A DNA stretch of 64,000 nt from Planctomycetota bacterium (GTDB lineage Bacteria; Planctomycetota; UBA1135; JACQFD01): contig JAEUHX010000042.1 of NCBI GenBank assembly GCA_016792805.1, forward strand, positions 132,046-196,045, in the 5' to 3' direction. The notes under the pieces were generated by a model that saw only the letters and a list, made by a program, of their open reading frames with translations, ran no database searches and was not told where the DNA came from. Positions within the stretch are counted from its first letter, which is position 1, and the number at the start of each line of letters is the position of its first letter. This document shows, piece after piece, positions 443 to 64,000 of this stretch. The translations under genes were made by a program, and so were the position numbers.

Positions 443-498
443 CAGATTCCAGCGCCGACCGGTCGTTCTTCCTCTTCCGACCCCGAGGAACGGGCTAG

Positions 499-1726
499 TC
501 GTCCTGGGGCCGCGCGGCTTCCCGAGGCGCGCTTTTCCTCGACTTGCTCGAGACCGACTTCGCACCGCGGCTCGCCGCGGCGCCATCCCGGCTCGAGTCA
601 CTTATCGCAGAGAACCACGGCGAGCCGGTCATCCTCGATGAAGTGCAGCGTACTCCGGAGTTGCTGAATGGGGTGCACCGCCTGATCGAGCCGCGCAAGC
701 TGCGATTCGTGCTCACGTGCTCGACCGCGCGCTCTCTTCGCCGTTCTGGCCTGAATCTCCTCGCGGGACGCGCCCGGAGGACGTTTCAAGAGTCATCCGA
801 GCTGCGCGCGGGCCTCGTCTCCCATCGCTGCGTCGCCTCGTCCTCGTCGTAACTCCTTGGCTACGCCTGGGCATAGGCACCTTGCGCTGGACGACGATTC
901 CTCGAGCTCGCTTTGCGGAGCACTTTTGAGACGTCCTCCCCGCACCTGCGATCTTCAGCCGCTGATGGCGAGTGAACTCGGGAATGCGTTTGACTTGAGT
1001 CGCGCGCTGCGATTTGGCTGCCAACCGGAGGCAGGCACCGCGAGCGATCCCGCGGCTTTCCTGCGGAGCCATCTGACGACCGACCTCCGCGAGGAAGTGC
1101 AGCAGGAGGGGCTGACCCGCAATCTCGGGTCGTTCTCACGATTCCTCGAGGCCGCGTCGTTTTCTCAGGCGACCGTCCTGAATCTCTCCGAGGTCGCGCG
1201 CGAATGCAGCATGGAGTGCGAAGTCGTTGAGCCGTGGATCATCATTCTCGAGGACCTTCTCCTCGCCATTCGCCTTCCGGCGTCTCACAGGCGCGCGAAG
1301 CGTGACGTGGTCACTCACCCGAAACTCTTTTTGTTCGATACTGGCGTGAATCAGGCCGTTCGCCCCCGTGGACCGCTCGACGCGCCCGATGGGATCGCCG
1401 GGGCCGCCGCCGAAACGCGGGTGATTGCGCATCTGCGCGCCGCCAACGATTCCGGGAACGTCGGATAGGCGTTGCACAATTGGCCGACGCGTCGAGGGCT
1501 GGAAGTGGACTTCATCCTCTCGGGAGAGCGCGGGCTGCGCGCGTTCGAGGTGAAATCGGCTGGCTCGGTGCGCGACGCCGATCTGAAGGATCCCCGCGCA
1601 TTCCAAGAGGACTACCCGATGGCCACCGCAACTCTTGTCTACGGCGAGGAGCGGAGCTATCACGATGACGGGTTTGAGGTGATTCCGTTCGGGAGCGCGC
1701 TGAAGGAGCTCGATCGCCTTCTGTAA
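499..1726 (+). pseudogene. AAA+ ATPase with DUF4143 domain (COG1373-like), degraded
   Basis: Three track ORFs (544..852, 857..1468, 1472..1726) together read like one family member: VILDEVQRTPELL...FVLTCSTARSLRRSGLNLLAGRA / ELGNAFDLSRALRFG...LTRNLGSFSRFLEAAS...THPKLFLFDTG / NWPTRRGLEVDFIL. I see three lesions: the N-terminal Walker A part is missing (in-frame stop at 496-498), a 166-nt insertion sits at 775-940, and there is an in-frame TAG at 1466-1468. Confidence 0.75.
776..939. mobile_element. 164-bp miniature inverted-repeat element (copy A) inserted in the ATPase pseudogene
   Basis: Terminal inverted repeats are GGAGGACGTTTCAAGAGT (776-793) and ACTTTTGAGACGTCCTCC (922-939). The flanks carry CC/CC (774-775 and 940-941). 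Removing 775-940 rejoins ...LLAGRA|RTCDLQPLMASELG... in frame. About 80 percent similar to 53489-53652. Confidence 0.7.
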
Positions 1727-1929
1727 GAGTCCCGCGAGTTCACGAAAAAAATGTGAAGCGGCTCTTGCCATGAAAGTCATGCAGGCGTACAACGCGCCCA
1801 CGCGGTGGGGAAATCGCCCAAAAACGGCCAAATCCTGGCGAAAGCGTCCACGCCAGGGGGCGATGACCCAAACCGTGGGATGCGACCTCGTGCGGGGCAG
1901 GCAGCTTCCGCTCGGCATCCAAGGCTGTG

Positions 1930-2424
1930 ATGGGCGATATGGCGGCAACCGTTTTCACTGGGAGGCACGACTACACCCTCGACTCGAAGGGTCGCGTCGC
2001 CATACCCAAGCCGCTCCTCGAGCAACTGCGACGTATCAGCGGCGCCGAATCGCCCCGTCTGGCGCTCACGCTCGGCACCGAAGACTGCCTATTCCTAGTG
2101 CTCGCTGCGGAGCTGCACACCGTGCTCGAGGAGGGGCGCGCCGAGTTCTTCGACGAGGAGGAGCCCGAGGATTTCCGCCGCCTCTTCTACTCCACGGCGC
2201 TCGAGTCGACGCCCGATCCCCAGGGACGCATCGTCGTGTCGCCCGATCTGCGGACTTACGCGGGACTCGAGTCGGACGTTACTTTTCTCGGCACTGGCCG
2301 GCGCATCGAGGTCTGGAGCACGAAGCGCTGGAACGACCGCCAGCGTAAGCTCGTCGCCGATTTCACCCGCATGGCGCGCGCTGCGAAGAAGGCTTCCCAG
2401 TCGAAGCCCGGGGGCGGCGCATGA
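1930..2424 (+). CDS. mraZ: transcriptional regulator MraZ
   Basis: N-terminal FTGRHDYTLDSKGRVAIPKPL and a second half with DPQGRIVVSPDLR (duplicated MraZ/SpoVT-AbrB motif). It is the first gene of the dcw cluster. Alternative starts are GTG 1927 and ATG 1939. Confidence 0.85.
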   Translation: MGDMAATVFTGRHDYTLDSKGRVAIPKPLLEQLRRISGAESPRLALTLGTEDCLFLVLAAELHTVLEEGRAEFFDEEEPEDFRRLFYSTALESTPDPQGRIVVSPDLRTYAGLESDVTFLGTGRRIEVWSTKRWNDRQRKLVADFTRMARAAKKASQSKPGGGA

Positions 2425-3455
2425 GTGACTTCCACCCGCGCGCGCAGGTCGAGCTGGATGCCTTGACCTTCGAGGATCCGGCCTCCGCGCCGCCGCCGAG
2501 CGACCGGCTCGAGAGCGATTCGGTGCGCCGCGCGCCGCACATCCCCGTGATGTCGGAGGAGACCTTCACTCTCCTTGCGATCGGACCGGCCGCCGTCGTG
2601 ATCGACACGACGGTGGGCGCGGGCGGCCACGCGGCGCAGGCGCTCGCGAGGCTCGGCCCCTCGGGGCGCCTCTTCGGATTCGACCGCGACGAGCACGCTC
2701 TCGAGCTGGCGTCGGCGCGGCTTGGAGGCGATCCGCGCGTGGCGCTTTGCTGCGCGCGCTTCTCCGAGCTGGGCAAGGCTCTCGATGAGCGCGGCGTTCG
2801 TCAGGCCGATGGGTGGATGTTTGACCTTGGGGTGAGCTCGATGCAGCTCGACGAGGCCGACCGCGGGATGTCTTTCCTGCGCGACGGGCCCCTCGATCTG
2901 CGCATGGATCCGGCGCGCGGCGAGGAGACCGCGGCCGACCTTGTGAATCGCATGCGCGAGGAGCCGCTTGCGAATCTGATTTATGAGCTTGGCGAGGAGC
3001 GCGCCTCGCGGCGCATCGCGCGCGCGATCGTCGAGGCGCGTCGACGCCAGCGCATCACGCGCACGCTCCAGCTGGCGCAAATTGTGAAGTCGGCGGTGCC
3101 CTTCTCGAAGGCCGACGCAGGGCGCATCCATCCCGCCACGCGCACCTTTCAGGCGCTGCGGATCGCCGTGAACCACGAGCTGGAAGAGCTCGAAGCGGGG
3201 CTCGAGATCGCGCTCGCGCGCCTCGCCCCGGGCGGCCGCGTCGCCGTCCTTTCGTATCATTCTCTCGAGGACCGAATTGTGAAAGTGCGCTTTCGGCGCG
3301 CTGCGCAGGAGGGCTTCGAGATTCTTACAAAGCGCCCGCTTCAGGCGGGCGACGCTGAGATTGCACAAAATCCGCGGGCCCGCAGCGCCAAGCTGCGGGC
3401 ACTGCTTCACCCCGTTTCGCGCAACCCCCGAGGGCGCGAGGAGTCGGGTCGATGA
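2421..3455 (+). CDS. rsmH: 16S rRNA (cytosine1402-N4)-methyltransferase RsmH
   Basis: HIPVM...VIDTTVGAGGHA...FGFDRD...DLGVSSMQLD...RGMSFLRDGPLDLRMD...SYHSLEDRIVK. ATGA overlap with the mraZ stop. Confidence 0.93.
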   Translation: MSDFHPRAQVELDALTFEDPASAPPPSDRLESDSVRRAPHIPVMSEETFTLLAIGPAAVVIDTTVGAGGHAAQALARLGPSGRLFGFDRDEHALELASARLGGDPRVALCCARFSELGKALDERGVRQADGWMFDLGVSSMQLDEADRGMSFLRDGPLDLRMDPARGEETAADLVNRMREEPLANLIYELGEERASRRIARAIVEARRRQRITRTLQLAQIVKSAVPFSKADAGRIHPATRTFQALRIAVNHELEELEAGLEIALARLAPGGRVAVLSYHSLEDRIVKVRFRRAAQEGFEILTKRPLQAGDAEIAQNPRARSAKLRALLHPVSRNPRGREESGR

Positions 3456-3862
3456 GAATCGTGACGCTGGGGCTTGCGAGCAGCCTTCTTGTGCTCGCGC
3501 TTGCGACGGCCGCATGGCGCTCCGAGGCCAATGCCGTGGCCGCCCAGAATCAGCAGACCGAGAGCGAGATTAGCCGGCTCGCGCGTGTGCGCGACCGGGC
3601 AAAGGCGGAGGTCGAGTCGCTGAAGCAGCCGCTCGTCGTGCGCGCGCGCCGAGAGAGCATCGCCGGCGATGGGCTTCTGTTGGGCTCCCTCCCGAGCTCC
3701 CTTCGAGCCGAGCTGACGCCGCCAACGAAGCCGGCGCCGGCCGCGAAGAAGGCCGCGGGAAAGGCTGCGCCGAAGGCGGCGCCCGCTCGCACCGATTCGG
3801 CGAAGAGTAAGAACAACAGAAATAGCAAATCCGCGAAGACCACCGGCAAGGCGCGAACGTGA
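3452..3862 (+). CDS. ftsL: FtsL-like cell division protein with Lys/Ala-rich basic tail
   Basis: The position between rsmH and ftsI fits FtsL. It has an N-terminal TM helix (LGLASSLLVLALATAAW) followed by a coiled-coil-like stretch. The C-terminus is PAPAAKKAAGKAAPKAAPARTDSAKSK. Start and stop codons overlap both neighbours. Confidence 0.65.
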   Translation: MRIVTLGLASSLLVLALATAAWRSEANAVAAQNQQTESEISRLARVRDRAKAEVESLKQPLVVRARRESIAGDGLLLGSLPSSLRAELTPPTKPAPAAKKAAGKAAPKAAPARTDSAKSKNNRNSKSAKTTGKART

Positions 3863-5901
3863 GCCCTGGCCGTCTCTTCGCGAGCGCCCGGCTTCCCATG
3901 TGGGTGCTGGGGGTTCTCCTCCTGGTTCTGTGGGGACGCCTCGTGCAGGTGCAGGTCCTTCGTCGCGATCGTTACGACAACGAGGTCGACCGCGCCGTGC
4001 TGAAGTCGGTTGTCCATCCGGCCGAGCGGGGGCGCATCGTCGACCGCTCGGGGCGCGTGCTCGCGGACAACCGCGGCACCGTGCACCTCGTGGCCGACTG
4101 TAAGGAGCTCGAGGCCGCGGAAGGACGCAATATTTTCCGCTACAGAAAGCAGCAGGGGCTCGAGGGCGCTCCCGACGAAGCTTGGAAGGCCTCCGCGCGC
4201 GTGATGTTACGCACCGAGATGGTGGCCGACCTCGCGGCCGTGCTGCAGGGAACTGTGGGCGTGAACTCCGGTTCTGTGGCGGCCCGTGCCCGCGACCTCG
4301 CCGAGCGTCTCGGGCGCCTCCATAAGGACCGGGAGTCGGGGCGGCTCGAGCCCGCGCGTCGCGTCGTGTTGGCGCGGGACCTCACTCCGGACGAAGAGGT
4401 GGCCGTGACGGCGGCGCTGCGCAAGCACCGCGTGTCGGTTGCCTTCTCGCTCGAAAAGGACTTCGAGCGAATCTATCCCGCGGGCGCTTCTGTATCTTCT
4501 GTCCTCGGATTCGTGGGCGCGCGGCTCGAAGCCGGATCCAACAAATCGGAGCGGCCAACGGAGCCTGGACCCGAGCGCATCGGACGGGGCGGCATCGAAG
4601 GCAAGCTCGAGCCGTGGCTCCGCGGCGCGGAAGGCAAGGAGATCGTGCTGAGGGCGCCCACGGCCCGGGGCGGCGCGCTCGATCTCGGCGGCGCCAGCGA
4701 AGGCACCTCGGGAATTGATTGCACGCTCACCATTGACGCCACGCTGAACGCCATCCTCCACGAGCAGCTCCTTCGCGCGAACAGAGAGTTCCCGTGCGAG
4801 CACGGCATCACCGGAATTGTGCTGAGCGCAAAGACCGGTGAGGTGCTGGCGATGGACACCGTGCCGTCATTCGATCCCAACGCGCGGCCCGGAGAGAAGA
4901 ACCATCCGGTCACCAATAAAGCGCTCGTGAATCCCTACGAGCCCGGGTCGGCCATCAAGCCCTTCACCATTGCGGCGGCCCTCGAAGCAGGCGCGGTCCA
5001 TGTGAATGATACTTTTGCTCTGCACAACGGGGTTTGGTCGATCCCGGGGCGGCGCAAGCCCATCAAGGACTCCCACTTCGACTCCGCGCATAATGTGCAG
5101 TCGGTGGGGGAGATCCTCGCGCGGTCGAGCAACGTCGGCGCCGTGAAGATTGGGCATAGGGCGGGCTCGGAGGTGATCGAGGAGAGCTTCCGTCGCTATG
5201 GGTTCCACGATTCGTGCGGTATCGATCTTCCCGGCGAGGCGCGGCCGCGGCTGCCGCGGCGTGACCGCGGCAGGCCCTGGGATGTGCCGAATACACTTTC
5301 TTCTGTGTGTTTCGGCTACCAGATGATGCTGACGCCGATCCGCTTCGCGGCGGCCTATGCCATGCTGGCCAACGGCGGCCTTCGCGTGGAGCCGAGGCTC
5401 GTTCGTGCGATTCGCTTCTCCGACGGCCGCGAAGAAATTGTTGCAGCTCCGGAGCCCGTCCGCGTGATGCGTGAAGACGTGGCCAAGACGGTGCAGCGGC
5501 TCTGTCACGGCGTTGTGACCGAAGAGTACGGCACTGCGTACAAGCGCGCGGAGTCGCTGCGGCAAGCGGGGTATTTGGAAGTCGATACATTTGCGGGGAA
5601 GACGGGCTCGGCTGTCGTTCCGAGCAGGCCGGACCGGATCAACGGAACCTTCGCCTGCTTCGGGCCCATGCCCGATCCGGAGATCGTCGTCCTTTTTGTG
5701 GCCTTCGAGCCCAAGGGCGCGCGGTTCGGCGGCGATATTTGCGCACAACCCGCGTTGGAGACGTTGGCGCTTTGTCTCCGCGCGCTTGGACTCACCTCAC
5801 CCAGCCCGCGGCGCGTTCGCCTCGGCGACGATGGGAATCCGGTCATTGAGCCGGTCCCCATCGAGGCCGAAGGCAACAAACCGGAGGGCCTCCCCAACTG
5901 A
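3859..5901 (+). CDS. ftsI: class B penicillin-binding protein / peptidoglycan D,D-transpeptidase FtsI
   Basis: N-terminal TM helix. Transpeptidase motifs are SAIKP (SxxK), SSN (RSSNVG) and KTGS (KTG). The GTG start overlaps the ftsL stop (GTGA). Sits in dcw context. Confidence 0.9.
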   Translation: MSPGRLFASARLPMWVLGVLLLVLWGRLVQVQVLRRDRYDNEVDRAVLKSVVHPAERGRIVDRSGRVLADNRGTVHLVADCKELEAAEGRNIFRYRKQQGLEGAPDEAWKASARVMLRTEMVADLAAVLQGTVGVNSGSVAARARDLAERLGRLHKDRESGRLEPARRVVLARDLTPDEEVAVTAALRKHRVSVAFSLEKDFERIYPAGASVSSVLGFVGARLEAGSNKSERPTEPGPERIGRGGIEGKLEPWLRGAEGKEIVLRAPTARGGALDLGGASEGTSGIDCTLTIDATLNAILHEQLLRANREFPCEHGITGIVLSAKTGEVLAMDTVPSFDPNARPGEKNHPVTNKALVNPYEPGSAIKPFTIAAALEAGAVHVNDTFALHNGVWSIPGRRKPIKDSHFDSAHNVQSVGEILARSSNVGAVKIGHRAGSEVIEESFRRYGFHDSCGIDLPGEARPRLPRRDRGRPWDVPNTLSSVCFGYQMMLTPIRFAAAYAMLANGGLRVEPRLVRAIRFSDGREEIVAAPEPVRVMREDVAKTVQRLCHGVVTEEYGTAYKRAESLRQAGYLEVDTFAGKTGSAVVPSRPDRINGTFACFGPMPDPEIVVLFVAFEPKGARFGGDICAQPALETLALCLRALGLTSPSPRRVRLGDDGNPVIEPVPIEAEGNKPEGLPN

Positions 5902-5926
5902 CAGGTCATTGAATAACGCATTCCGG

Positions 5927-6036
5927 CGATTCTCGTCCCCTTTTCGCGATCTCATCGTCGAGCCGCGATCGACGTAACTCATTGGCTACGCCTCACGCGT
6001 CTCTCCTCGATCTCGCGAAAAATGAACTTCGAATCG
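5927..6036. repeat. imperfect palindromic element related to the 164-bp element (shared core GTAACTCaTTGGCTACGCCT)
   Basis: Arms are CGATTC..TTTTCGCGA..GAG (5927-5962) and CTCGATCTCGCGAAAAA..GAATCG (6006-6036). The central core at 5974-5993 matches 849-868 and 53563-53582 with 1-3 mismatches. It lies in the 193-bp ftsI-murE spacer. Confidence 0.5.
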
Positions 6037-6094
6037 CTCGAAAGCAGTTTTTCAACAACCTGCTAATACAAAAGGCGCTGGATGGCCACGCATC

Positions 6095-22035: not shown

Positions 22036-23901
22036 GCCGTGGGCGAACAGCGATTCCGTGACTCGAAGACGCCGAAGCATCGGCGTCTTCTTGTCTTGAT
22101 GCTGGCGCATGCGCGTCAGGATGTCCGAAAGTGCGCGGACGGCTTCCGCCGCGTGTGGCCCTTTGTTGAGCATCACACATTCCGCGCGCTCGCCCATGGC
22201 GGCATCGGTGATTTCCGCGCGCGACGGCAGCCCCGTCTTCGCCAGGCTCTCAAGCACCTGCGTCGCCCAGATGGCGGGCACATGGGCCGCCTGGCATAGC
22301 CACAGAATCTCCTCTTGCACCTCTGCGAGCCGCTCGAACCCGCATTCCACGGCGAGGTCGCCGCGGGCGATCATGATGCCGACGGGGTAGGAGCGCAGCG
22401 CCGCCAGGAGAAGGCGCGGGAGCTGTGCGAAGGCCTCCTGGGTTTCAATTTTCAGCACGATCGCCACCCCGTTCGCGCCGCGCCGACTCAGCTCCTCCCG
22501 CAGAGAATCCACATCTTCGGGGGATTTCACAAAAGAGAGCCCGACGATGTCGGCACGGGCCGCGGCGAAATCGAGCGCCGCCAAGTCCTCGGGCTGCAGT
22601 CCCCGGATGGGGATCTTGGAGTCGGGGAGGTTAATACCTTTGGAGGCTCCGATCTTCCCGAGGGGTCCCGGCGTATGGGTGATTCTCAACCATGCGCCCT
22701 CGGGCGCCGGATGCTCGACGACGGCGCCGACCTTTCCATCATCGAAGAGCACGCGCTCGCCGGAATGGAGCGCCGCGACGACCGAGGGAATAGTGCAGGC
22801 GATCTCCGCCGGCGAGATGGCCTCGCCGCGATCATTGAACATGGGCAGGCGGCTCAGCTCGCGCCCGTGCAGCAGCACGCGGTCGCCTGCGCGCACGGGA
22901 ACCTCCTGCTCGAGGGCCGGCAGGGGACCGAGCGCTTCAACGGCCCTCTCGCTTCCGCAGCATGCCTTGAGCTCGGTGCCGGGGCCCACATAGGTCGTCT
23001 CGTCGCACGCTCCGAAAACGCGGTCGAGTTCACAATGGGTCACTGTGATCTCGCGCTTCTTGCCGCGGAGATCGCGCAGCGTGATGCGCGCGTCGGGTGC
23101 GAGCCGCGAGAGGAACCAGGGCGAGACGCGAAGCACGGCGTCGGCGCCCGCTTCGGTCAAGGGATCGGGGTCTCCGCTGCGCAGGCAGATCCGCGCTGGC
23201 GCGGTCACCGTACCCGTGGCGTCGCGCCTTGGCTTCCAGCGCACAACTTGGGGGCCCGGCTCCACGACGCCGGTGCGAAGTTTGGGGCCGGGGAGATCGA
23301 ACAGGATTCGGCAAGGGATCCCGGAGGTTTCGGCCGCGTCGCGGACATGCCGCGCCATCGATTCCCAGGCGGCGGGACCGTCGTGGGCGCCATTGATCCG
23401 CACGGCATTGGCTCCCTCGGCGAGAAGTCGACGCGCCAAGCTCGCGTCGGTCGCCGCCTCGCTCGGCAGCGTCACGAGAATGCGCACCTCTCGGTGCTCG
23501 GGTGCCGGACCGAGGAGTGCCGCCGTGTGGCGCTCGAGGAGACGCTGTGCCTCCCGGAGTGACACGGCGGCGGGGAACCGATCCCCGGCTGGCGCGTCGC
23601 CCGAGAGCTGTGCCAGAACATCGCAGACGGCCTCCAGGTTCGAGAGCACATGCGACTCCGCGCGCCCGAGCGAGGAGAGCCCCAGCTCGGCCAGCTCGAG
23701 CTGAAGATTGCGCAGGTCAACGTGCCGTAGAGCGAGGTAGTGCAGGAGGTTGCGTGCGCTAGCGCGGTTCTCCGGCACGGCGGCCGCAATGGCTGCGGCC
23801 TGCTCGGCCTCGAGGTCGAGGGCCGAGCTGCGCAGGCCGCTCAGGCTCCCGAGGAGCTGGCGAAGCCGATCAACGTGCCGTCGTGGAGAGGCCGGGACCA
23901 T
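22024..23901 (-). CDS. pyruvate kinase family protein, atypical architecture
   Basis: PK barrel motifs are present: INGAHD, LFDLPGPKLRTG, KGINLPDS, VGLSFVKSPEDV, IVLKIETQEAF, GIMIARGDLAVE, PAIWATQVLESL, PSRAEITDAA, MLNKGPH. It also has a ~130-aa N-terminal helical extension and an enlarged B-domain insert, and it lacks the C-terminal allosteric domain. Confidence 0.75.
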   Translation of the reverse strand: MVPASPRRHVDRLRQLLGSLSGLRSSALDLEAEQAAAIAAAVPENRASARNLLHYLALRHVDLRNLQLELAELGLSSLGRAESHVLSNLEAVCDVLAQLSGDAPAGDRFPAAVSLREAQRLLERHTAALLGPAPEHREVRILVTLPSEAATDASLARRLLAEGANAVRINGAHDGPAAWESMARHVRDAAETSGIPCRILFDLPGPKLRTGVVEPGPQVVRWKPRRDATGTVTAPARICLRSGDPDPLTEAGADAVLRVSPWFLSRLAPDARITLRDLRGKKREITVTHCELDRVFGACDETTYVGPGTELKACCGSERAVEALGPLPALEQEVPVRAGDRVLLHGRELSRLPMFNDRGEAISPAEIACTIPSVVAALHSGERVLFDDGKVGAVVEHPAPEGAWLRITHTPGPLGKIGASKGINLPDSKIPIRGLQPEDLAALDFAAARADIVGLSFVKSPEDVDSLREELSRRGANGVAIVLKIETQEAFAQLPRLLLAALRSYPVGIMIARGDLAVECGFERLAEVQEEILWLCQAAHVPAIWATQVLESLAKTGLPSRAEITDAAMGERAECVMLNKGPHAAEAVRALSDILTRMRQHQDKKTPMLRRLRVTESLFAHGADR

Positions 23902-38248: not shown

Positions 38249-39517
38249 TTAGCGTCGCCGCCTTGCGATTCGGAAGCCCTGGGGCGCGAACGTCCCCTCA
38301 TGGGCCAGCACGCTTGAATCGAATTGTTTCACCGTGGTGGCCCATGGCGGCACGGGGATGCCGTCGGGGTAGATCCCGAGCGGAATCGAGTGCCGCAGAT
38401 GCCGCTGAATCGCCGACAGGTTCTCGAGCTCGTCATAGCTGACGAAGGTCGTCGCCTTGCCGCTTGCATCGGCGCGCGCCGTTCGGCCCACCCGGTGGAT
38501 GTAATCATCGGGCCGCAGCGGAGTGTCATAATTGACTACATGGGCAATCTGCTCCACGTCGAGGCCGCGTCCGGCGACGTCGGTGGCAATCAGAATTCGT
38601 GCCGACTCGTCCTGGAACATTTCAAGGGCCTTCATGCGCGCCGCCTGAGTGAGGTCTCCATGGAGCGCCGCCACGGGGAGCCCAGCCGCGCGCGTGGCGC
38701 GGTGCAGCTCCTCGGCCTTTACTTTTGTTGCCACAAAAACGAGGCAGGTTCCCGTTTCGGCCCGCAGCAACGCGATAAGCGCAGGGAGCTTCTGCTCGAT
38801 CGCGAGGTAGAGGACCGACTGCTCAGCGCGCTCCGCGACGCGCTGCGCGGCTCCGATCTCGATCGGAATCGGATTGCGCATATGTTGCTTCGCGAGGTTC
38901 GCGATGTCGGTCGGAATCGTCGCGGAGAAGAGGAGCGTCTGGCGCGACGCGGGGGTGACATTGAGAATCCGGTAGACCTGCGGCAGGAAGCCGAGGTCGA
39001 GCATTCGGTCGGCTTCGTCGAGGACGACGATCGCCGTGTGCGAGAGATCGACGGTGCGGTGCTCGATGTGGTCCAGCAGCCGGCCGGGCGTTGCCACGAC
39101 GATTTGCGGTCCGCGGCGTAGTGCCGTCACGTCGGAGCGCAGCGGCAGGCCGCCGACGAGCGCGACGGAGGAGAGGCCGACCGACTCGGCAAGCGGCTCG
39201 ATCACTCCGCGGATTTGGAGGGCGAGTTCGCGCGTTGGCGCCAAAACAACAATTCGGATCGCCCGTTTTGCTTCGGATCGGCCGCGCGAGAGCCTCTCGA
39301 GGGCGGGCACGGAGAAAGCGAGAGTCTTCCCGGTGCCCGTCGGCGCACGCGCCAACAGATCGCGGCCCGCGAGCGCTGCCGGGATCGCCTTTGCCTGAAT
39401 CGGCGTGGGGCGCTCGAAACCACCGGCCGTGAGCGCTCGAAGAAGCGCTTCTGACAGCGGGAATCGCCGGAAACCGGCGTCTTCCGTTTCGGTGGGGGTG
39501 CAGTCTCCTGAGGTCAC
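38249..39517 (-). CDS. DEAD-box ATP-dependent RNA helicase
   Basis: Motifs seen: Q motif (FERPTPIQ), APTGTGKT, PTRELA, VLDEADRMLD, SAT, HGDL, TDVAGRGLD, HRVGRTAR. GTG start at 39517. Confidence 0.92.
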   Translation of the reverse strand: MTSGDCTPTETEDAGFRRFPLSEALLRALTAGGFERPTPIQAKAIPAALAGRDLLARAPTGTGKTLAFSVPALERLSRGRSEAKRAIRIVVLAPTRELALQIRGVIEPLAESVGLSSVALVGGLPLRSDVTALRRGPQIVVATPGRLLDHIEHRTVDLSHTAIVVLDEADRMLDLGFLPQVYRILNVTPASRQTLLFSATIPTDIANLAKQHMRNPIPIEIGAAQRVAERAEQSVLYLAIEQKLPALIALLRAETGTCLVFVATKVKAEELHRATRAAGLPVAALHGDLTQAARMKALEMFQDESARILIATDVAGRGLDVEQIAHVVNYDTPLRPDDYIHRVGRTARADASGKATTFVSYDELENLSAIQRHLRHSIPLGIYPDGIPVPPWATTVKQFDSSVLAHEGTFAPQGFRIARRRR

Positions 39518-39702: not shown

Positions 39703-40074
39703 TTAGAACCGATCCCGACGGGGGCCGCCGCGGAATCCGCCGCCGCCACCGCCGCCAAAGCCGCCGCGATCGCCACCGCGGAAGCCACCGCCACCACCGC
39801 CGCCGAAGCCGCCGCCACGCGGCGGACGATCTTCCGCCTCGGTGACGCGGAGCGGACGACCGCCCATGTTCTGGCCGTTCTTGGTCTGCATCACGTCGGC
39901 GGCTTCCTCCGGCGTGCTCATGGTGACGAAGCCAAATCCACGGGACCGACCGGTCTCGCGGTCGGTCATGATCTTCACGTCGACGACGGTGCGGCCGCCC
40001 TCGCTGAAGAATCCACGGAGATCTGCTTCGGTCGTGCTAAAGGGCAAATTGCCCACGTAGAGTCTCGAACCCAT
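39703..40074 (-). CDS. RRM-type RNA-binding protein with RGG/Gly-rich tail
   Basis: ATG 40074 gives MGSRLYVGNLPF (RNP2) ...RGFGFVTM (RNP1), then GGGFGGGGGGGFRGGDRGGFGGGGGGGFRGG. Confidence 0.9.
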   Translation of the reverse strand: MGSRLYVGNLPFSTTEADLRGFFSEGGRTVVDVKIMTDRETGRSRGFGFVTMSTPEEAADVMQTKNGQNMGGRPLRVTEAEDRPPRGGGFGGGGGGGFRGGDRGGFGGGGGGGFRGGPRRDRF

Positions 40075-53123: not shown

Positions 53124-53488
53124 GCTCGCAGTTTGGCGATCGGCTCCAATCGGTGCGATCCCTGGCCGGGCTCGCCGCTTGACAATTGCTATTGTGTGTC
53201 CGTTTCGCGAGCGAGGGCCGTGCCGCACGGGTGGACCGAGCCGGCGGTCCGAAGGGCACCGGCGCGGAAATTCGACACCTCACTTCCAATGAGCTCGTCG
53301 GAAGTACCCGACTCGTCCGAGCAACGGACATGGCGAGCCGGCTTTCGTGCCGAAGAGTTGATCACTGCCAGCGGAGGGATTCGAGCCGCCATGGAGCGGG
53401 GATCGACTGCCGCAATGAGAGGCCCGGTGGCTGTTCCCACCCGGCGCAGCGGGTCGCAGCGTCTCCGAGCAGCACCGGGATTGGCCTC

Positions 53489-53652
53489 GGAGAACGTTGC
53501 GAAAGTCCTTCGAGCTGCGCGGGGACCTCGTCGCCCAACGCGGGGGCGCCTCGTCCTCGACGGAACTCCTTGGCTACGTCTGCGGGGAGGCTCCTGTCGC
53601 TGGACGACGATTCCTCGCGCTCGCATTCCGGAGCACTCTTGAAACGTCCTCC
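53489..53652. repeat. 164-bp miniature inverted-repeat element (copy B), intergenic
   Basis: About 80 percent identical to 776-939 and in the same orientation. Termini are GGAGAACGTTGCGAAAGT... and ...CACTCTTGAAACGTCCTCC. The central core is GGAACTCCTTGGCTACGTCT. Confidence 0.7.
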
Positions 53653-53677
53653 ACGCGCCCACCCCCTGTGCGGCAGG

Positions 53678-54835
53678 CTACCAGCGCGTCAGCGGTAGGT
53701 CCTCGCGCCCTTCCTGAATGCCGTCGACGGAGCCGACTTGATAGCTCCAGCCGATGCCCTCGGGGAAGGTCTGGTGGCGCGGCACGAGGATCGCCCCTTT
53801 GATGCACACCTGCTCGCAGAGCTTGCAGGAAACGCACTTTTTCTCGTCGACGACAGCCACGCGATTCACCGTGCCGTCGAAATCCTCGAGATGAATGCAA
53901 TCAAAAGGACACACATCGACGCAGAACTCGCACCCGGTGCAGAGCTCCTCGATCACCTGCGCCTTCGGCACTTCCTTCGGCTTCAAATACTGAATGATCT
54001 TGTCGTGCTGGCCGACGATCGCGTCGAAGGGGCAGTACGTTCCGCAAACCGAACAATTAATGCAGAGCTGCGGATCGATGTAGTGGCGCGCCTTGCTCTG
54101 CCCCGTGATGGCATTCGTGGGGCAGACGCGCTCACAGATCGTGCATCCAGTGCAGGCTTCTGTAATGAAGTGCGCTGTCCAGGTAAACGAATCGCGCACC
54201 TTGGCGTCGTGGAAGACTGCCACCTCGAGGACGCGATGCGCGTCGTAGTGGTGCTTCACGCCGACGACCGCGTCATCGAAGTCGACCTTCACAGTGAACC
54301 GGTCGGGGAACGCGGCCGACAGATTGCATAGAAGCCGAACCATCGGGTCGACCATCCAGGCGCGCACATAGAGCTGGCGCCCGCCAGCTACCACCTGCAT
54401 GGAGTAGTCCGGCATGTCGGCCGTGATGCCGTAGCGGTAGCGGTCGCGAACTTGCGGGACAACGGCCGGGAACTCGACCCGCACGACGGTATAGCCTTCC
54501 CGCTTCTCCACCGTGTACTTGCGCCCGTAGCGCCTTTCGCGCTCCTCGGGATCGTCGTAGATGGAGTCTTTTGCCGCGGCCCAGGCCGCCTCCCAGCCGG
54601 CCACCTCCTTCGGGGCGCCGCCATCGACGTCGTCCGGCGGCGGCAGCTCACCGCTCCAGAGGATCGCGTTCGTGGGGCAGATCTCGACGACCTTGCGGGC
54701 GTTGTACTTGTCCGTCGGATGCCCCGGCGTCGCGTGGGCCTTCGCATCGTCTCCCATGAAGAAGACGTCCGGGAAGTCCTTGCAGCACGCGTCGCACGCG
54801 ATGCACTTCACGGGGTCGACGGAGTATTCGGGCAT
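53678..54835 (-). CDS. multi-cluster 4Fe-4S ferredoxin-domain protein (five CxxCxxC...CP motifs) with a non-Fe-S central insert
   Basis: The N-terminus carries CIACDACC...CPTNA. The C-terminal half carries CTGCTICERVCP, CINCSVCGTYCP, CTGCEFCVDVCP and CVSCKLCEQVCI. Roughly aa 60-215 have no Cys motif. Confidence 0.8.
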   Translation of the reverse strand: MPEYSVDPVKCIACDACCKDFPDVFFMGDDAKAHATPGHPTDKYNARKVVEICPTNAILWSGELPPPDDVDGGAPKEVAGWEAAWAAAKDSIYDDPEERERRYGRKYTVEKREGYTVVRVEFPAVVPQVRDRYRYGITADMPDYSMQVVAGGRQLYVRAWMVDPMVRLLCNLSAAFPDRFTVKVDFDDAVVGVKHHYDAHRVLEVAVFHDAKVRDSFTWTAHFITEACTGCTICERVCPTNAITGQSKARHYIDPQLCINCSVCGTYCPFDAIVGQHDKIIQYLKPKEVPKAQVIEELCTGCEFCVDVCPFDCIHLEDFDGTVNRVAVVDEKKCVSCKLCEQVCIKGAILVPRHQTFPEGIGWSYQVGSVDGIQEGREDLPLTRW

Positions 54836-56688: not shown

Positions 56689-58029
56689 TCATGCCCCGTC
56701 GCTCTGCTTCGCTGATCCGAGGATCGACCCGAGCCGTCGCTGCACGGCAGGCGCATTGAGCCCCGCGGCGAAGGAGACGACGAGAGCGCCCGCCTCCGAG
56801 AGGAGCAGCGCGCGGTCGAATTGAACGAGCCACAGTCCGGTCAGGACCGCCGAAGTGAACAAAACGCCGAGGACGGCCCCGATGATCGCATTGTGGATTC
56901 GCTCCCGTGTTGCGCGGGGCGGCTTCTTGGTGGTGCGCCGCAGCGCACCGCCGAGAAGCCCTCCGGCGATCGTAAAGGCCGACAACAGCTTGGGCCACAG
57001 AAGCGAGATGGTGAGCTTCGGGGCGACGAGACCGCCGGCCTCCGCCCAGAGCTGTACATCGCCGACTCCGAGCGAGCGAAAGATGGTGTCGTTCGCCGAC
57101 TCGCCCTTGGAAATCGTCAGGACGGCTGGGAATTCGCCGCGCTCGCCGTGGAGCGAAACGTTGAGATCTTCGGGGACAGGTGCCGCGCTCCCGTCGGCGT
57201 TGCGCAAGGAAACGGTGATCTCGGTGCTCTCGAGGCCGAGCCCATAGATGGAAGATTGGCGCGAGGTGAGGGAGAGGGTTCGGCCGCCGTCGCCCGCGAG
57301 AAGGTCGATCTGTTGTTTCCCGAGAGTGCTCTCCGCCTCGACGGCCACGTCGCCAGCCGAGGTCCGGCGCGCGACGCGCACCGAAACGGATCCGTCGAGC
57401 CCGAGCTTCTTCAGGCTGACTGTCGTCGGCTCGACCTCTCCGCCGTTGCCGCGTACGAAGAAGGCCACGGGAAGCGCCCTCGGGAGCGCCTCATCGACGC
57501 CGGAGGTCGGCTTCAGCCAAATGCGGAGATCGGTAACAAAACGCTTCTCGCCGCCGGACCACGGAAGCGGATCATTTTGTAATCTCATGCAAAGCATCGC
57601 CGAGACGACCTCTCCGGCGCTCGCGGCGTTCGTCGGAACGAACACAAGATTCGCCGCGGCGGCGGTCGTGCGGTCGCCGAGTTCCAGCCCGGACGGGGTG
57701 TCGCCCTTGGCGCGAACGACGGCGAGGTCGCCGCGCCCGAGCTTCAGCTCGCGCACTGCGCCGAGCGGAGTGGCCTTGTTGGAAGCCGGGCCGCGGGAAC
57801 GCTCCACCACAATCTCGAGGTCTTCCGCCTCTCGCGCGCTGAGCGTCATCGGCAGGATCGCTTCGTCGGCGGTCGCCTTCATCGAGCTCAACGAGAAGGT
57901 GTTCTTCAGGCGATCCGCGAGGTCGACTCGAAGCCCGGTGGGAGGCTTGGGCTTCTGCTGCGCGGCGGCGCTTCCCATGACCACAACGAGGCAGAACGTA
58001 CTCCGGATCCAGCGCATCATGAGGGGCAT
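56689..58029 (-). CDS. secreted/membrane protein with beta-sandwich repeats and C-terminal TM helices
   Basis: Signal peptide MPLMMRWIRSTFCLVVVMGSAAAQQ. Ig-like repeats follow (EITVSLRNADGSAAPVPEDLNVSL). The C-terminus has about 3 TM helices (LLSAFTIAGGLLGGAL, AIIGAVLGVLFTSAVLTGLWLV, AGALVVSFAAGL). Confidence 0.6.
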   Translation of the reverse strand: MPLMMRWIRSTFCLVVVMGSAAAQQKPKPPTGLRVDLADRLKNTFSLSSMKATADEAILPMTLSAREAEDLEIVVERSRGPASNKATPLGAVRELKLGRGDLAVVRAKGDTPSGLELGDRTTAAAANLVFVPTNAASAGEVVSAMLCMRLQNDPLPWSGGEKRFVTDLRIWLKPTSGVDEALPRALPVAFFVRGNGGEVEPTTVSLKKLGLDGSVSVRVARRTSAGDVAVEAESTLGKQQIDLLAGDGGRTLSLTSRQSSIYGLGLESTEITVSLRNADGSAAPVPEDLNVSLHGERGEFPAVLTISKGESANDTIFRSLGVGDVQLWAEAGGLVAPKLTISLLWPKLLSAFTIAGGLLGGALRRTTKKPPRATRERIHNAIIGAVLGVLFTSAVLTGLWLVQFDRALLLSEAGALVVSFAAGLNAPAVQRRLGSILGSAKQSDGA

Positions 58030-58223
58030 CGTGCCACAGAACGCCGGCCTCGCTGACCATCGAACCGATGGGGCGAGCGATCTCCCTCGAACTCTGTGGG
58101 GCGATGGGGGAGACGGCGGCGTTGGAGCTTCTCAGCATGCTCTGGCCGCGGCAGCAGTTCTGCGAGCTACGCGCTGGGGCCTCACGCCCGTTCGGCGGAG
58201 CATTCGGGAAACCACCTTTCGGT

Positions 58224-58436
58224 TCAGCCGTTCGAATTCCTCGCCGTCGCAGGGATCGTCGGCGGCGTCGGGCGCGATTGTGCGCCGGATGCGCTGGGCT
58301 CCGGCACTGGGGCTGGAGCGGCAAACGTGCGCGCCGGAGTGCGCGGGCCGCCGTAGCCAGTTGATTCGCAGCTCGTCAGGAGAAGCGGAAGCACAAGGAG
58401 TGCGCAGAGCGCCACGGAGGAGCGTCGAAGTTGCAT
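58224..58436 (-). CDS. small lipoprotein
   Basis: ATG 58436 gives MQLRRSSVALCALLVLPLLLTSC (lipobox), followed by a Pro-rich 45-aa tail. Confidence 0.5.
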   Translation of the reverse strand: MQLRRSSVALCALLVLPLLLTSCESTGYGGPRTPARTFAAPAPVPEPSASGAQSRPTPPTIPATARNSNG

Positions 58437-58489
58437 AGTCGTTTTTGTTGGGTTGCGGCCATGGGCCTGCGGCACAGGCCCCGGAACTG

Positions 58490-59410
58490 CTACTTATGCG
58501 AAGATTTTTCCCGCCCAAGGTGATGAACGGGGGACATGAGGAGATCGGCGCTGAGGTCGCGCACGATCTGTTCAATTGCCGTGTCGCACGTCTCAGCGAG
58601 CGCGTCGACGAGGCGGTCGGCACAGCCGGCTGCGCCGTCCGGTTCCACGGCGGACATCTCCGCCAGGAGCTGATCGGTGCCCGTGCGCTTCAGCGCGAAA
58701 ACGCGGTTCGTGGCGCCGCCGTCCTCATCGAGAAGGAGGGAGCGCAGTGCGCCGTCCAGCTCCTTCGCCTGGCGCTGGGCCACTAGCGGATCGGCGGAGA
58801 TTTGATACAGAAGATGGATGAGTAATAGTAACACCTGGGAGTTCCGCGCGATCCGCGCGCCGCGGGCCGGGCGCAGATCGAGGCAGTCGGGGTGGGGTTG
58901 CGGCACGAGAGCCGCGCCGATTCCCATGGACCCGCGCGTCGGGTCGGCAGGGAGCCCATACCACGCATGGAGTTCCGCGCAGAGCGATTCGGGTTGGCGC
59001 AGCTGCGTCCAGGCGTCGGAGAGAGCTTCGCGGCGAAGGGCCATTTCGCGGTAGCTCCGGCCGTCGATCCACACCGCCGAGGCGCGCTCGCGCGCATGGG
59101 CGTCGAGCCAAAGCGTGAGCGGCATCAGCTCCTTCAGGATCTGTATGGCCTTCGGCATGTCGTCGGCGAAACGACGCAACAGATCGCGCCGCTCGTCGAA
59201 CATGCGCACTGCAATCTCATCGCGCAGCTGGATCGATTCGTTCCACTCGTCGAGCTTCTTCCAGGCGAGCGTGGCGAGAGCCGAGAGGACAGTCAATAAA
59301 AGCGCGATGGCGGAGGCGAGGAGATTTTCCTGCACGCTGCGCCCACGCGACATGCGCACGAGCTCGACGACGGTCCCGGCGCCGGACGGGGGATGAGGTT
59401 CCGAGCTCAT
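58490..59410 (-). CDS. single-pass membrane protein, all-helical, unknown function
   Basis: The ATG 59410 start overlaps the stop of the upstream peptidase gene (ATGA). TM helix LLASAIALLLTVLSALATLAW. No family recognised. Confidence 0.6.
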   Translation of the reverse strand: MSSEPHPPSGAGTVVELVRMSRGRSVQENLLASAIALLLTVLSALATLAWKKLDEWNESIQLRDEIAVRMFDERRDLLRRFADDMPKAIQILKELMPLTLWLDAHARERASAVWIDGRSYREMALRREALSDAWTQLRQPESLCAELHAWYGLPADPTRGSMGIGAALVPQPHPDCLDLRPARGARIARNSQVLLLLIHLLYQISADPLVAQRQAKELDGALRSLLLDEDGGATNRVFALKRTGTDQLLAEMSAVEPDGAAGCADRLVDALAETCDTAIEQIVRDLSADLLMSPVHHLGREKSSHK

Positions 59411-60582: not shown

Positions 60583-60801
60583 GAGAAGGCTCGCTAGAGG
60601 GGACCTAGTCCGCAGCGGGCCGCGCGCAGGAACCGAACATCGGCGTCCTGACGGGCACGGATCGCGGTTCAGGGTCAGCGTGCTAGCATCCCGCGGTCCG
60701 TCGTGGAGCCTGCGACGGGAAGTTGGAAGCGAGATGACCGAGACTGCCGCAAGCCTCGAACCGACGCGCCGACCGAATCGGCGGCGGGGAGTTTCGTACC
60801 G

Positions 60802-63800: not shown

Positions 63801-64000
63801 CCGCTCGACCCACTCCCTCGGCGTTCTGTGGCATAGCCTGGAGTGTCTTGGGGCGCCGCCAGTGCGGGAGGAGTTCTTCCGACGCTGCGAGAGGCCGCTA
63901 GCGCCCAAGGATCTGTTGGGATGGGTCGAGATTCCTGCCGGAGAGTTCCAAATGGGCTCACCGAAGAGAGAGACTGGACGCTATAGGGACGAGGGGCCCC
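60802..64000 (+). CDS. NLR-type multidomain protein: ParA-like (KGGSGR) ATPase - TIR - NACHT NTPase - FGE-sulfatase domain (3' end beyond window)
   Basis: Not in the supplied track because no stop is reached. I read 1,066 uninterrupted codons from ATG 60802. Domain strings: MTGKIVTFYSYKGGSGRTFLLAN...DFVLVDSRTG (ParA/MinD-like); FDLFLSFSSPQRDLARAVAAELKLRGRNVFFDERSLVAGSPW...ISTWQRAEVEAF (TIR, 61780-62166); VIVGEPGAGKTTTL (62461-62502) and LVILLDGLDE (62692-62721) (NACHT); WVEIPAGEFQMGSPKRETGRYRDEGP (63922-end, FGE-sulfatase N-terminus). Confidence 0.85.
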   Translation, partial: MTGKIVTFYSYKGGSGRTFLLANVGWWLAMQGFRVLCVDWDLEAPGLARYFPEEWGGRRKSGLVDLLKAAHENQPIAWKQEVRPIKVADRQELALLDAGGHSGADYARALAELPWSEMGRGTPGAFRDRLQAMVNEWRQEYDFVLVDSRTGFTDCGTVCTSQIPDVLVLVIAPNTQGLEGGLEVVERVRRHRHAEKADAAPLKIVPVPSRWDNNSPEDPKKWLELFEARLDPVYREWCDKDTDVGKLLTLLRIPYISRWSFGEPLPVRDEPGNDSASISYAMITVASLLARDFQNTAQLTAERESYVREVIEKGRGVLASAEATPQFRFDLFLSFSSPQRDLARAVAAELKLRGRNVFFDERSLVAGSPWPDGLAQGVREARGVVALLGTRISTWQRAEVEAFIEKANEDSTRFVIPVWLEALPDWPELVFQGFAGRGQSPAELASSIHNKLELRERPEPPVAATPAVPSWTPESALESYRAWVQEQHARLVPYFDGASQKMLENVCIALEFEPTVGKREEMLDPQAAETARASNGKPGALQDLLLSSAQRRWVIVGEPGAGKTTTLRALAVSLAKAQVWIPIFLPLARLAKPPLDPIGFALHDMLGEEQHSARGRALREALLDAQRGGRLVILLDGLDEYRGDDIDKLLEALVSYASAPERSALPIALTSRHVAFERRETPAGFRRAKVLALNEEQQKNLASKFLGPREAERMRRHLQARPALAELARSPLLLTLLCVVARDTLLSESALPATRGKLYKTVIDLLLRRGFGVEKRGVADTVPARTLLQRLSFRLHDLGGESWEFEELSRVLGELRQGDPKVNFLVKETKEWGSNDAFLKDIGYHAGVLGPHDSEHLPWRYLHRSLREFLAAEELATRPQEEVRKHLAGWVAEEAGAKSQKDTKRSDAKRPKPERWGEVYALLCGLVDNPTTMVKALQEASPEIFLRSLPSIDALEPQAALDLLLPLDGWDADALRLLLAAWALPDRKAVELLQFQVKPGRSTHSLGVLWHSLECLGAPPVREEFFRRCERPLAPKDLLGWVEIPAGEFQMGSPKRETGRYRDEGP

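What the first reader, a model, noticed from the sequence alone, without database searches (positions are those of the whole stretch)
776..939. 164-bp miniature inverted-repeat element whose in-silico excision restores a disrupted ORF; second copy 52.7 kb away
Segments 776-939 and 53489-53652 are about 80 percent identical over 164 bp and lie in the same orientation. Each is bounded by ~18-nt terminal inverted repeats (GGAGGACGTTTCAAGAGT ... ACTTTTGAGACGTCCTCC) and is internally hairpin-prone.

Copy A sits inside the DUF4143 ATPase gene. Deleting 775-940 (164 nt plus a 2-nt CC duplication) joins ...LLAGRA to RTCDLQPLMASELG... in frame, with the spacing expected for this family. That is the signature of a transposition-type insertion with a 2-bp target duplication. 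No transposase is encoded, so it behaves like a MITE. I do not recognise the family.
Basis: seen in the sequence. Interest (0 to 1): 0.6.

Follow-up and report, generated by a model that had tools for sequence, protein, structure and literature searches.

The report
Hairpin-shaped miniature transposon family in a Planctomycetota genome
The 164-bp segment is a real small non-coding mobile DNA element (a MITE-type "jumping" hairpin), with at least five diverged copies in about 80 kb of an uncultured Planctomycetota genome; one copy is missing from the same spot in close relatives, which shows it moved, but it is an ordinary kind of element.

Summary
Copies A (777-938) and B (53490-53651) are 83% identical, lie in the same orientation, carry 17-22-nt terminal inverted repeats, and each folds into one long hairpin.

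I found three more family members. C lies at 5902-6062, between ftsI and murE. D and E lie about 9.5 kb beyond the window end in the same strain.

Mobility is shown directly. Six contigs from close relatives have an empty site at C: CCCCAA-CTAA-TACAAAAGG, against CTGA[161 nt]CTAA in the window. Removing 166 nt at A gives a gap-free alignment of the ATPase with seven homologues.

The ends are better read as 161-162-nt elements (SAGG...CCTS) with 4-bp target duplications, not 164 nt with 2 bp. A has CCCG/CCCG, B has CTCG/CACG, and C has CTGA/CTAA.

The ATPase is a pseudogene anyway. Its Walker A region is lost and it has an in-frame TAG.

No element copy encodes a conserved ORF, the window holds no transposase, and 379 kb of held sequence contains no parent IS.

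Best reading: a previously undescribed MITE family, moved in trans by a DDE transposase, possibly IS5-like. It is a new member of a known kind and of modest interest.

One feature remains unexplained. The whole hairpin is kept through 20 compensatory pair changes between subfamilies, and one strand folds better.

The parts
777..938 (.). Copy A of the element, 162 nt. The ends are GAGGACGTTTCAAGAGT...ACTTTTGAGACGTCCTC. It is inserted in the DUF4143 ATPase pseudogene, in the same orientation as B and C.
   Evidence: 173 bits
773..776 (.). Left copy of the 4-bp target duplication of A (CCCG)
   Evidence: A net insertion of 166 nt (162 + 4) is needed for the gap-free join.
939..942 (.). Right copy of the 4-bp target duplication of A (CCCG)
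   Evidence: A 4/4 match has a chance probability of 0.0056.
53490..53651 (.). Copy B, 162 nt and 83% identical to A. It starts 26 nt downstream of the stop codon of the minus-strand 4Fe-4S gene (53678-54835).
   Evidence: 165 bits
53486..53489 (.). Left flank of B (CTCG). It matches the right flank CACG at 3 of 4 positions.
53652..53655 (.). Right flank of B (CACG)
5902..6062 (.). Copy C, 161 nt, a divergent subfamily about 51% identical to A and B. It has the same length, the same long hairpin and the same apex, with ends CAGGTCATTGAATAAC...GTTTTTCAACAACCTG. It lies between the ftsI stop and the murE start and is absent from the same site in close relatives.
   Evidence: family D4; 150 bits
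5898..5901 (.). Left flank of C (CTGA). Its TGA now serves as the ftsI stop codon. The relatives have a single CTAA here.
6063..6066 (.). Right flank of C (CTAA), identical to the single CTAA of the empty site
851..865 (.). Apex motif AACTCCTTGGCTACG of copy A. It is also at 53564-53578 in B, and at 5976-5990 in C as AACTCATTGGCTACG. It is the best conserved part between the two subfamilies.
   Evidence: 3 matches against 0.07 expected; apex 79-86% identical, arms 38-50%
443..1726 (+). AAA_14/DUF4143 ATPase pseudogene that hosts copy A. Its Walker A segment is missing with a frame change near 470-520, it carries the element insertion, and it has an in-frame stop.
1466..1468 (+). In-frame TAG inside the ATPase reading frame, a second lesion independent of the element

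Best explanation
These are copies of a non-autonomous DNA transposon (MITE). Each is a 161-162-bp non-coding element with terminal inverted repeats (consensus ends SAGG...CCTS), and its two halves pair along their whole length. It is inserted by a transposase encoded elsewhere in the genome, which makes a staggered 4-bp cut that is repaired into a 4-bp target duplication.

Shown:
- The element is an insertion.
- It has several diverged dispersed copies.
- It encodes nothing.
- One copy is absent from the orthologous site of close relatives.

Inferred:
- The enzyme is a DDE transposase acting in trans, possibly IS5-like, because two targets are CTAA and CTAG.
- The 4-bp rather than 2-bp reading of the duplication.

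Consequences at the three sites in the window:
- A adds one lesion to an ATPase gene that is now a pseudogene.
- C lengthens the ftsI-murE spacer in the cell-division operon from 28 to 193 nt. It places a hairpin of about -55 kcal/mol in that transcript, and its duplicated target supplies the ftsI stop codon.
- B places a hairpin of about -86 kcal/mol in the 3' region of the 4Fe-4S gene transcript.

Any effect of these hairpins on RNA processing or stability is conjecture.
For: - Empty site. Six contigs from close relatives (three JGI metagenomes and three Logan runs; dcw region 92-93% identical in L013, L016 and L017) read CCCCAACTAATACAAAAGG. The window reads CCCCAA-CTGA-[161 nt]-CTAA-TACAAAAGG.
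- Excision at A. Removing 166 nt gives AGRA|RTCDLQPL, which aligns without a gap to AGRALTRxMHPL in seven homologues.
- Flanking repeats. A is CCCG/CCCG, B is CTCG/CACG and C is CTGA/CTAA. The joint chance probability is about 2e-5.
- Terminal inverted repeats are well above chance.
- Copy number. Three copies lie in the window, and D and E lie in the selD-selA spacer of the same strain (L034:5201-5356 and 5428-5586, at 52.6 and 49.5 bits). D is in the opposite orientation to the others.
- Short-read contigs of this strain break at the apex of A, B and C. At B the two contigs overlap by exactly 30 nt (k-1), as expected for a k-mer repeated elsewhere.
- No coding capacity and no known RNA family. 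The six-frame translations of C have stops in every frame. Rfam gives nothing.
- About 200 kb of relatives' loci hold no copy, so the family is specific to, or expanded in, this lineage.
- D and E have lost the single-hairpin fold. A differs from B at 28 positions with no compensatory pair. Both fit neutral decay after insertion.
- The targets of C (CTAA) and E (CTAG, kept in relatives) fit the YTAR 4-bp target of IS5 (PMC5009759).
Against: - No parent IS or transposase was found. The window has none, and 379 kb of held sequence has no other match to the terminal repeats. The rest of the genome could not be searched.
- Only five copies were seen, and only A has a perfect duplication. E matches at 2 of 4 positions, and D has none because its flanks are rearranged.
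- The targets of A and B (CCCG, CWCG) do not fit YTAR.
- Pairing along the whole 162 nt, kept between subfamilies by 20 double changes (7.8 +/- 2.1 in shuffles), goes beyond what binding of a transposase to terminal repeats requires.
- The same element strand folds better in all five copies.
- There is no DNA-level empty site for A or B, because those regions are deleted or rearranged in the relatives.
Confidence: 0.8

Rival explanations
1. A palindromic element moved as single-stranded DNA by a tyrosine or HUH transposase (REPIN/RAYT, or the TIR-associated 'TIRYT' type). In this reading the long hairpin and its apex are the recognition structure.
For: - The whole element is one hairpin, kept by 20 compensatory pairs between subfamilies.
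- The apex is conserved while the arms have diverged.
- One element strand folds better in 5 of 5 copies. G-U pairs on that strand outnumber those on the other by 16 to 4 (p = 0.012).
- RAYT-type genes flanked by long terminal repeats, with moderately abundant TIR repeat families, are described in PMC3733652.
Against: - Flanking 4-bp duplications are present, and the empty site has a single CTAA. HUH enzymes do not duplicate the target.
- There are no 20-40-nt REP units with GTAG or CGTC tags.
- The targets differ between copies.
- D and E do not keep the hairpin.
Confidence: 0.08
2. A structured RNA element, such as a regulatory hairpin, sRNA or RNase III site, whose copies are kept for their function in transcripts, with mobility secondary.
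For: - Strong folding z-scores, down to -7.3 for the 5902-6094 spacer that holds C, on the minus strand.
- Covariation between subfamilies and a strand asymmetry of wobble pairs.
- B and C both sit just after stop codons.
Against: - No Rfam family matches.
- A sits inside a coding sequence.
- C is transcribed with the dcw operon on the strand that folds worse (-55 against -82 kcal/mol).
- Close relatives lack C, D and E at the same sites, so nothing conserved depends on them.
- There is no compensatory change between A and B.
- No promoter-like site, and no terminator-like site within element C, was found at C.
Confidence: 0.05
3. Segmental duplication or a chance similarity of two GC-rich hairpin-prone stretches, with no mobility.
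For: A and B alone show only 83% identity, and B has an imperfect flank match.
Against: - The similarity ends sharply at the inverted repeats.
- Five copies sit in unrelated contexts.
- C has an empty site.
- The excision at A is exact.
Confidence: 0.01

Closest known systems
Bacterial MITEs that are palindromic along their whole length (ERIC/IRU of enterobacteria, Correia/NEMIS of Neisseria, RUP of Streptococcus, Nezha of cyanobacteria); comparison from my own knowledge
   Same: Size of 100-200 bp, no coding capacity, terminal inverted repeats, short target duplication, many diverged copies. Frequent location just after genes or inside operons, where they are co-transcribed as hairpins. Presence/absence differences between close strains.
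   Different: No sequence similarity to any of them was seen or tested directly. The duplication here is 4 bp, whereas Correia and IS630-derived MITEs duplicate TA. The host is an uncultured Planctomycetota lineage. Two subfamilies keep the full hairpin through compensatory changes.
IS5 (IS5 family, DDE transposase) as a possible source of the transposase
   Same: IS5 makes a 4-bp target duplication and prefers YTAR targets (PMC5009759). C inserted into CTAA and E next to CTAG. The ends begin GAGG or CAGG and carry a TTG.AA.AA-type motif that I recall from IS5-family inverted repeats (memory only).
   Different: A and B are flanked by CCCG and CWCG, which are not YTAR. No IS5-like transposase or full-length IS was seen. 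The similarity of the terminal repeats was not tested against ISfinder. Other families that make 4-bp duplications, such as IS701, are equally open.
REP/REPIN elements moved by RAYT transposases (PMC3733652)
   Same: Non-coding palindromic repeats that form long hairpins as single strands. They are found between genes, and REPINs are known for compensatory maintenance of pairing.
   Different: REPs are 20-40-nt units with GTAG or CGTC tags, arranged as inverted doublets, and they make no target duplication. Here there is one continuous 162-nt hairpin with 4-bp duplications and an insertion inside a gene.

Membership tests
MITE (non-autonomous DNA transposon of bacteria) | Small size (under about 500 bp) and no transposase or other conserved ORF | tested here: met
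   The elements are 161-162 nt. The six-frame translations are not conserved between subfamilies, and C has stops in every frame. A pseudo-protein search found nothing.
MITE (non-autonomous DNA transposon of bacteria) | Terminal inverted repeats | tested here: met
   The 18-mer GGAGGACGTTTCAAGAGT occurs at both ends of A and at the right end of B, against 0.02 matches expected. C has its own matching ends CAGGTCATTGAA / CAGGTTGTTGAA.
MITE (non-autonomous DNA transposon of bacteria) | Target-site duplication flanking each copy | tested here: met
   A matches at 4/4 positions (CCCG). B matches at 3/4. C matches at 3/4 and the empty site holds a single CTAA. The joint chance probability is about 2e-5. 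E matches at 2/4, and D shows none because its flanks are rearranged. A length of 4 bp is preferred over 2 bp but is not proven.
MITE (non-autonomous DNA transposon of bacteria) | Multiple dispersed copies in one genome | tested here: met
   Five copies lie in about 80 kb. Contig breaks at the apex imply further copies. The genome-wide count could not be made.
MITE (non-autonomous DNA transposon of bacteria) | Evidence of movement: filled versus empty orthologous sites | tested here: met
   Six relatives' contigs have an empty ftsI-murE site. At A the evidence is a gap-free protein alignment after excision.
MITE (non-autonomous DNA transposon of bacteria) | A related autonomous IS with matching ends that supplies the transposase | not testable with these tools
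   None in the window (Pfam) and none in 379 kb of held loci.
IS5-derived MITE | 4-bp duplication at YTAR targets | tested here: inconclusive
   C (CTAA) and E (CTAG) fit. A (CCCG) and B (CTCG/CACG) do not. The target rule is taken from PMC5009759.
REP/REPIN (RAYT-mobilised) | 20-40-nt REP stem-loops with a GTAG or CGTC tag, as inverted doublets, and no target duplication | tested here: not met
   The element is a single continuous 162-nt hairpin with flanking duplications. The family description is from PMC3733652.
IS200/IS605-derived palindrome-associated elements | No terminal inverted repeats, no duplication, and insertion 3' of a fixed tetra- or pentanucleotide | tested here: not met
   Terminal inverted repeats are present. 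The flanks are duplicated and differ between copies.
Any Rfam RNA family | Match to a covariance model at its gathering score | tested here: not met
   No match at gathering thresholds in the window. Only sub-threshold hairpin look-alikes appear at E-values of 0.18 to 6.5.

The most novel reading that the evidence does not exclude
The element is not a passive MITE. It is a hairpin element whose single-stranded form (DNA or RNA, on the strand that is minus in this window) is what is recognised or functional. On this reading the full-length pairing, the apex and the wobble-pair asymmetry are under selection in active copies, while insertion still leaves a 4-bp duplication. That would be a mobilisation mode, or a host-recruited hairpin function, not described for known MITE families.
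Probability: 0.07. Interest if true: 0.65.

Novelty: new member of a known kind. Interest (0 to 1): 0.3.

Why it matters
The finding documents an apparently undescribed MITE family in an uncultured Planctomycetota lineage, a phylum for which my one literature search turned up no description of small mobile elements. It comes with direct filled-versus-empty-site proof of recent movement.

It has practical consequences:
- The copies break short-read assemblies of this organism.
- They sit next to a 2.2-kb gene replacement.
- One copy adds a lesion to an ATPase gene that is now a pseudogene.
- One copy places a large hairpin in the middle of the essential cell-division (dcw) operon.

The family also offers a small test case for how long palindromic MITEs keep their two arms complementary while the sequence drifts. 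None of this changes current understanding of transposons.

Tried and rejected
- **Exact-pattern scans.** I scanned with the apex 20-mer GKAACTCMTTGGCTACGYCT against GTDB species genomes and JGI metagenomes, and with the 18-mer against viral contigs. All gave chance hits only, with no hairpin context.
- **Six-frame pseudo-protein search.** I looked for spurious ORFs called through other copies and found nothing.
- **Rfam.** Nothing at gathering thresholds, or at permissive thresholds around each copy.
- **BLASTN against plasmids.** The whole element and both types of end gave nothing meaningful.
- **Parent IS.** Fuzzy matching of the ends across 379 kb of held DNA found only the known copies. 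Pfam on 20 more window ORFs found no transposase.
- **Empty sites for A and B.**
  - Relatives have deleted almost the whole ATPase gene, leaving a 3' remnant.
  - The region downstream of the 4Fe-4S gene is rearranged.
  - The intact ATPase paralogue nearby is too distant for a DNA comparison.
- **Failed look-ups.** FtsI and MraZ failed because of different start-codon calls.
- **Weak covariance-model hits.** The hits at window 23683-23830, and inside selA of relatives (L038:5940-6096, L039:579-735), are hairpin-prone coding sequence conserved in both strains, not elements.
- **Rejected readings.**
  - REP/REPIN and IS200/605-type elements, because of the duplications and terminal repeats.
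  - An intrinsic terminator, because no T-run follows the hairpin.
  - A small ORF behind the AAGGAG in the apex, because no start codon lies in range.
  - A 2-bp duplication, because it makes the ends of C unequal and the three copies inconsistent.

Full report
**1. The observation**

The two segments are present as described.
- The repeat finder pairs 775-946 with 53488-53659 at 83% identity in direct orientation. BLASTN gives 82.7% over 162 nt.
- Similarity starts and stops sharply at the inverted repeats.
- The 18-mer GGAGGACGTTTCAAGAGT occurs at 776-793 (+), 922-939 (-) and 53635-53652 (-), against 0.02 matches expected by chance.
- Each copy folds into one long imperfect hairpin. The energies are -78.8 and -80.1 kcal/mol, with z = -5.1 and -3.7.

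**2. A third copy in the window**

The repeat search also linked 5949-5993 to the centre of A and B (family D4).
- The motif AACTC[C/A]TTGGCTACG occurs exactly three times in the window, against 0.07 expected.
- Around the third site, 5902-6062 is a 161-nt hairpin of the same length and layout but with different arms and ends.
- This copy C lies between the ftsI stop (5901) and the murE start (6095).
- A covariance model built from A, B and C scores them at 173, 165 and 150 bits. It finds nothing else convincing in the window.

**3. Organism and relatives**

- MurE of the window is MBL8694208.1, annotated 'MAG: Planctomycetes bacterium'.
- Its 90% cluster holds two variant proteins from JGI metagenomes and Logan assemblies. 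Their contigs are syntenic with the window and 92-93% identical in the dcw region.

**4. Proof of insertion**

- All six relatives' contigs read ...GGGCCTCCCCAACTAATACAAAAGG... at the ftsI-murE junction. The window reads ...CCCCAA CTGA [CAGG...161 nt...CCTG] CTAA TACAAAAGG.... That is a net insertion of 165 nt at a site that holds one CTAA when empty.
- At A, joining 774 to 941 (removing 166 nt) gives NLLAGRA|RTCDLQPLMASELG. This aligns without a gap to NLLAGRALTRxMHPLTAxELG in seven homologues of 55-59% identity. Intact family members therefore have nothing at this position.

**5. Ends and duplication**

Aligning C with A and B puts CAGG...CCTG opposite GAGG...CCTC. On that register:
- A is 777-938, flanked by CCCG and CCCG.
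- B is 53490-53651, flanked by CTCG and CACG.
- C is 5902-6062, flanked by CTGA and CTAA.
- The chance of matching at 4/4, at least 3/4 and at least 3/4 positions is about 2e-5.

However, it leaves C with two unpaired bases at one end and makes the three copies inconsistent. The extra G...C pair that made the repeat look like GGAGG/CCTCC comes from the duplication itself (CNCG). I therefore prefer a 4-bp duplication. What is firmly established is only the net insertion of 166 and 165 nt.

**6. The ATPase gene**

Pfam finds AAA_14 (profile positions 33-128 of 129) and DUF4143 in the reconstructed protein. The gene is not restored by excision, for three reasons:
- The alignment shows a 13-residue gap exactly where the homologues have the Walker A motif GxGKT.
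- The reading frame changes there.
- There is an in-frame TAG at 1466-1468.

Relatives have lost nearly the whole gene and keep only about 70-100 nt of its 3' end.

**7. More copies outside the window**

I walked along a Logan contig of the same strain (SRR12425356_2549). The model found two further full-length matches in the selD-selA spacer.
- D is L034:5201-5356 at 52.6 bits, in the opposite orientation to the others.
- E is L034:5428-5586 at 49.5 bits, in the same orientation as A, B and C.
- If the contig is collinear with the window, they lie about 9.5-9.9 kb beyond the window end.
- E is 79% identical to C. D is about 60% identical to A, B and C, with outer arms like A/B and inner arms like C/E.
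- E abuts the selA stop codon at a CTAG that relatives also have.
- In relatives the whole D-E block (403 nt) is replaced by 2,182 nt that carries a PD40/Tricorn-like gene.
- No copy was found in about 200 kb of relatives' loci.

**8. Indirect evidence for further copies**

Short-read contigs of this strain begin or end inside the elements.
- One contig runs from 849 to 5959, that is from the apex of A into C.
- One runs from 5994 to 53578, from the apex of C to the apex of B.
- One ends at 53549.
- The last two overlap by exactly 30 nt, which is k-1 for k = 31. This is the signature of a 30-mer that occurs in more than one context in the sample.

**9. What it is not**

- Rfam has no match.
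- The window has no transposase.
- No other match to the terminal repeats occurs in 379 kb of held DNA.
- Plasmid BLAST is empty.
- The REP/REPIN and IS200/605-type definitions fail on size, terminal repeats and duplication (for the REP description).

**10. Mechanism**

The anatomy is that of a MITE: terminal repeats, a short duplication, no coding capacity, dispersed diverged copies and strain-specific presence.
- The most likely mechanism is mobilisation in trans by a DDE transposase that makes a 4-bp staggered cut.
- IS5 makes 4-bp duplications at YTAR (PMC5009759). C (CTAA) and E (CTAG) fit this rule, but A and B do not. An IS5-like source is therefore a lead, not a finding.
- A preference for CTAR in a 65% G+C genome would by itself explain why C and E landed on stop codons.
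- D and E no longer fold as one hairpin, and A and B differ at 28 positions with no compensatory pair. Both are as expected for neutral decay after insertion.

**11. What remains odd**

- Between the A/B and C subfamilies the arms are only 38-50% identical, yet 20 of 58 pairs changed on both sides and stayed paired. Shuffles give 7.8 +/- 2.1, and slid controls give 1-7.
- The apex stays 79-86% identical between those intact copies.
- The same element strand folds better in all five copies, including the inverted copy D. For C the energies are -82 against -55 kcal/mol.
- G-U pairs on that strand outnumber those on the other by 16 to 4 (p = 0.012, or 12 to 4 with p = 0.08 if shared pairs are counted once).

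These features could reflect co-evolution of both ends with different transposases, together with arm-to-arm correction in a palindrome. They could also reflect a requirement for a single-stranded form. Five copies cannot decide between these.

**12. Verdict**

This is a real mobile element and a previously undescribed MITE family in a Planctomycetota MAG. It is a new member of a known kind and of modest interest.

Noticed in passing
window 443-1726: The DUF4143/AAA_14 ATPase hit by copy A carries two further lesions: loss of the Walker A segment with a frame change near 470-520, and an in-frame TAG at 1466-1468. Close relatives have deleted almost the whole gene and keep only about 70-100 nt of its 3' end. 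An intact but distant paralogue (392 aa, MBL8694258.1) lies just beyond the window end, next to polA.
   Followed up: yes
L034:5196-5598 versus L038:3426-5607 (about 9.5 kb beyond the window end): The block holding copies D and E (403 nt) takes the place of 2,182 nt in relatives that carries a 574-aa PD40/Tricorn_N-like gene. Homology stops within a few bases of the outer ends of D and E, which suggests an element-associated deletion or replacement. Next to D there is an extra fragment resembling an A-type end (GGAGCACTTTTG, L034:5356-5367).
   Followed up: partly
window 23683-23830: A 148-nt stretch folds into a long hairpin (-91.8 kcal/mol, z = -5.8). It lies inside the N-terminal, non-Pfam part of a 625-aa ORF whose C-terminal part is a pyruvate kinase barrel domain. 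It is only a weak covariance-model hit (18.6 bits, E = 0.037) and lacks the apex and end motifs. The protein has 624-aa members in its 90% cluster, so it is probably coding sequence and not an element.
   Followed up: partly
window 58029-58490 versus L019:4287-6681: Relatives carry an 89-aa ORF (70 aa in the JGI strain), a PepSY_TM gene and an ApbE/DUF2271 gene (about 2.3 kb) between the 305-aa and 443-aa genes. The window strain has only a 460-nt spacer there.
   Followed up: no
window 60652-64000 (runs off the end): A long plus-strand ORF encodes a roughly 1284-aa TIR-NACHT-type NTPase with a C-terminal FGE-sulfatase domain, which resembles a defence or signalling STAND protein. It is present in the JGI relative but absent from two Logan relatives, where polA directly follows the peptidase gene.
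   Followed up: no
L013:5553-5584, L016:4307-4338 (mraZ upstream in relatives): In place of the ATPase gene, relatives have about 200 nt that includes the near-perfect palindrome GGCAAATTTGGAGTCGGAAACTCCAAATTTGC. One strain also has a 13-nt tandem duplication (TTCGAGAGACACA). This is unrelated to the element family.
   Followed up: no
window 39724-39815: A run of 12-nt-period GCCGCCGCC-type repeats (five overlapping copies) sits upstream of the minus-strand DEAD-box helicase gene (38249-39517). It may encode a glycine-rich or RGG-type tail, or belong to a neighbouring RNA-binding protein gene, as in L023.
   Followed up: no
window 849, 5959/5994, 53549/53578: Logan short-read contigs from five to six sequencing runs all break at the centre of copies A, C and B. 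These elements therefore fragment assemblies of this organism.
   Followed up: partly
window 53190-53489: The spacer between copy B and the FG-GAP gene is about 100 nt longer than in the one relative that has the same gene order (L021), and it aligns poorly. The region downstream of the 4Fe-4S gene differs in gene content among all the relatives examined.
   Followed up: partly
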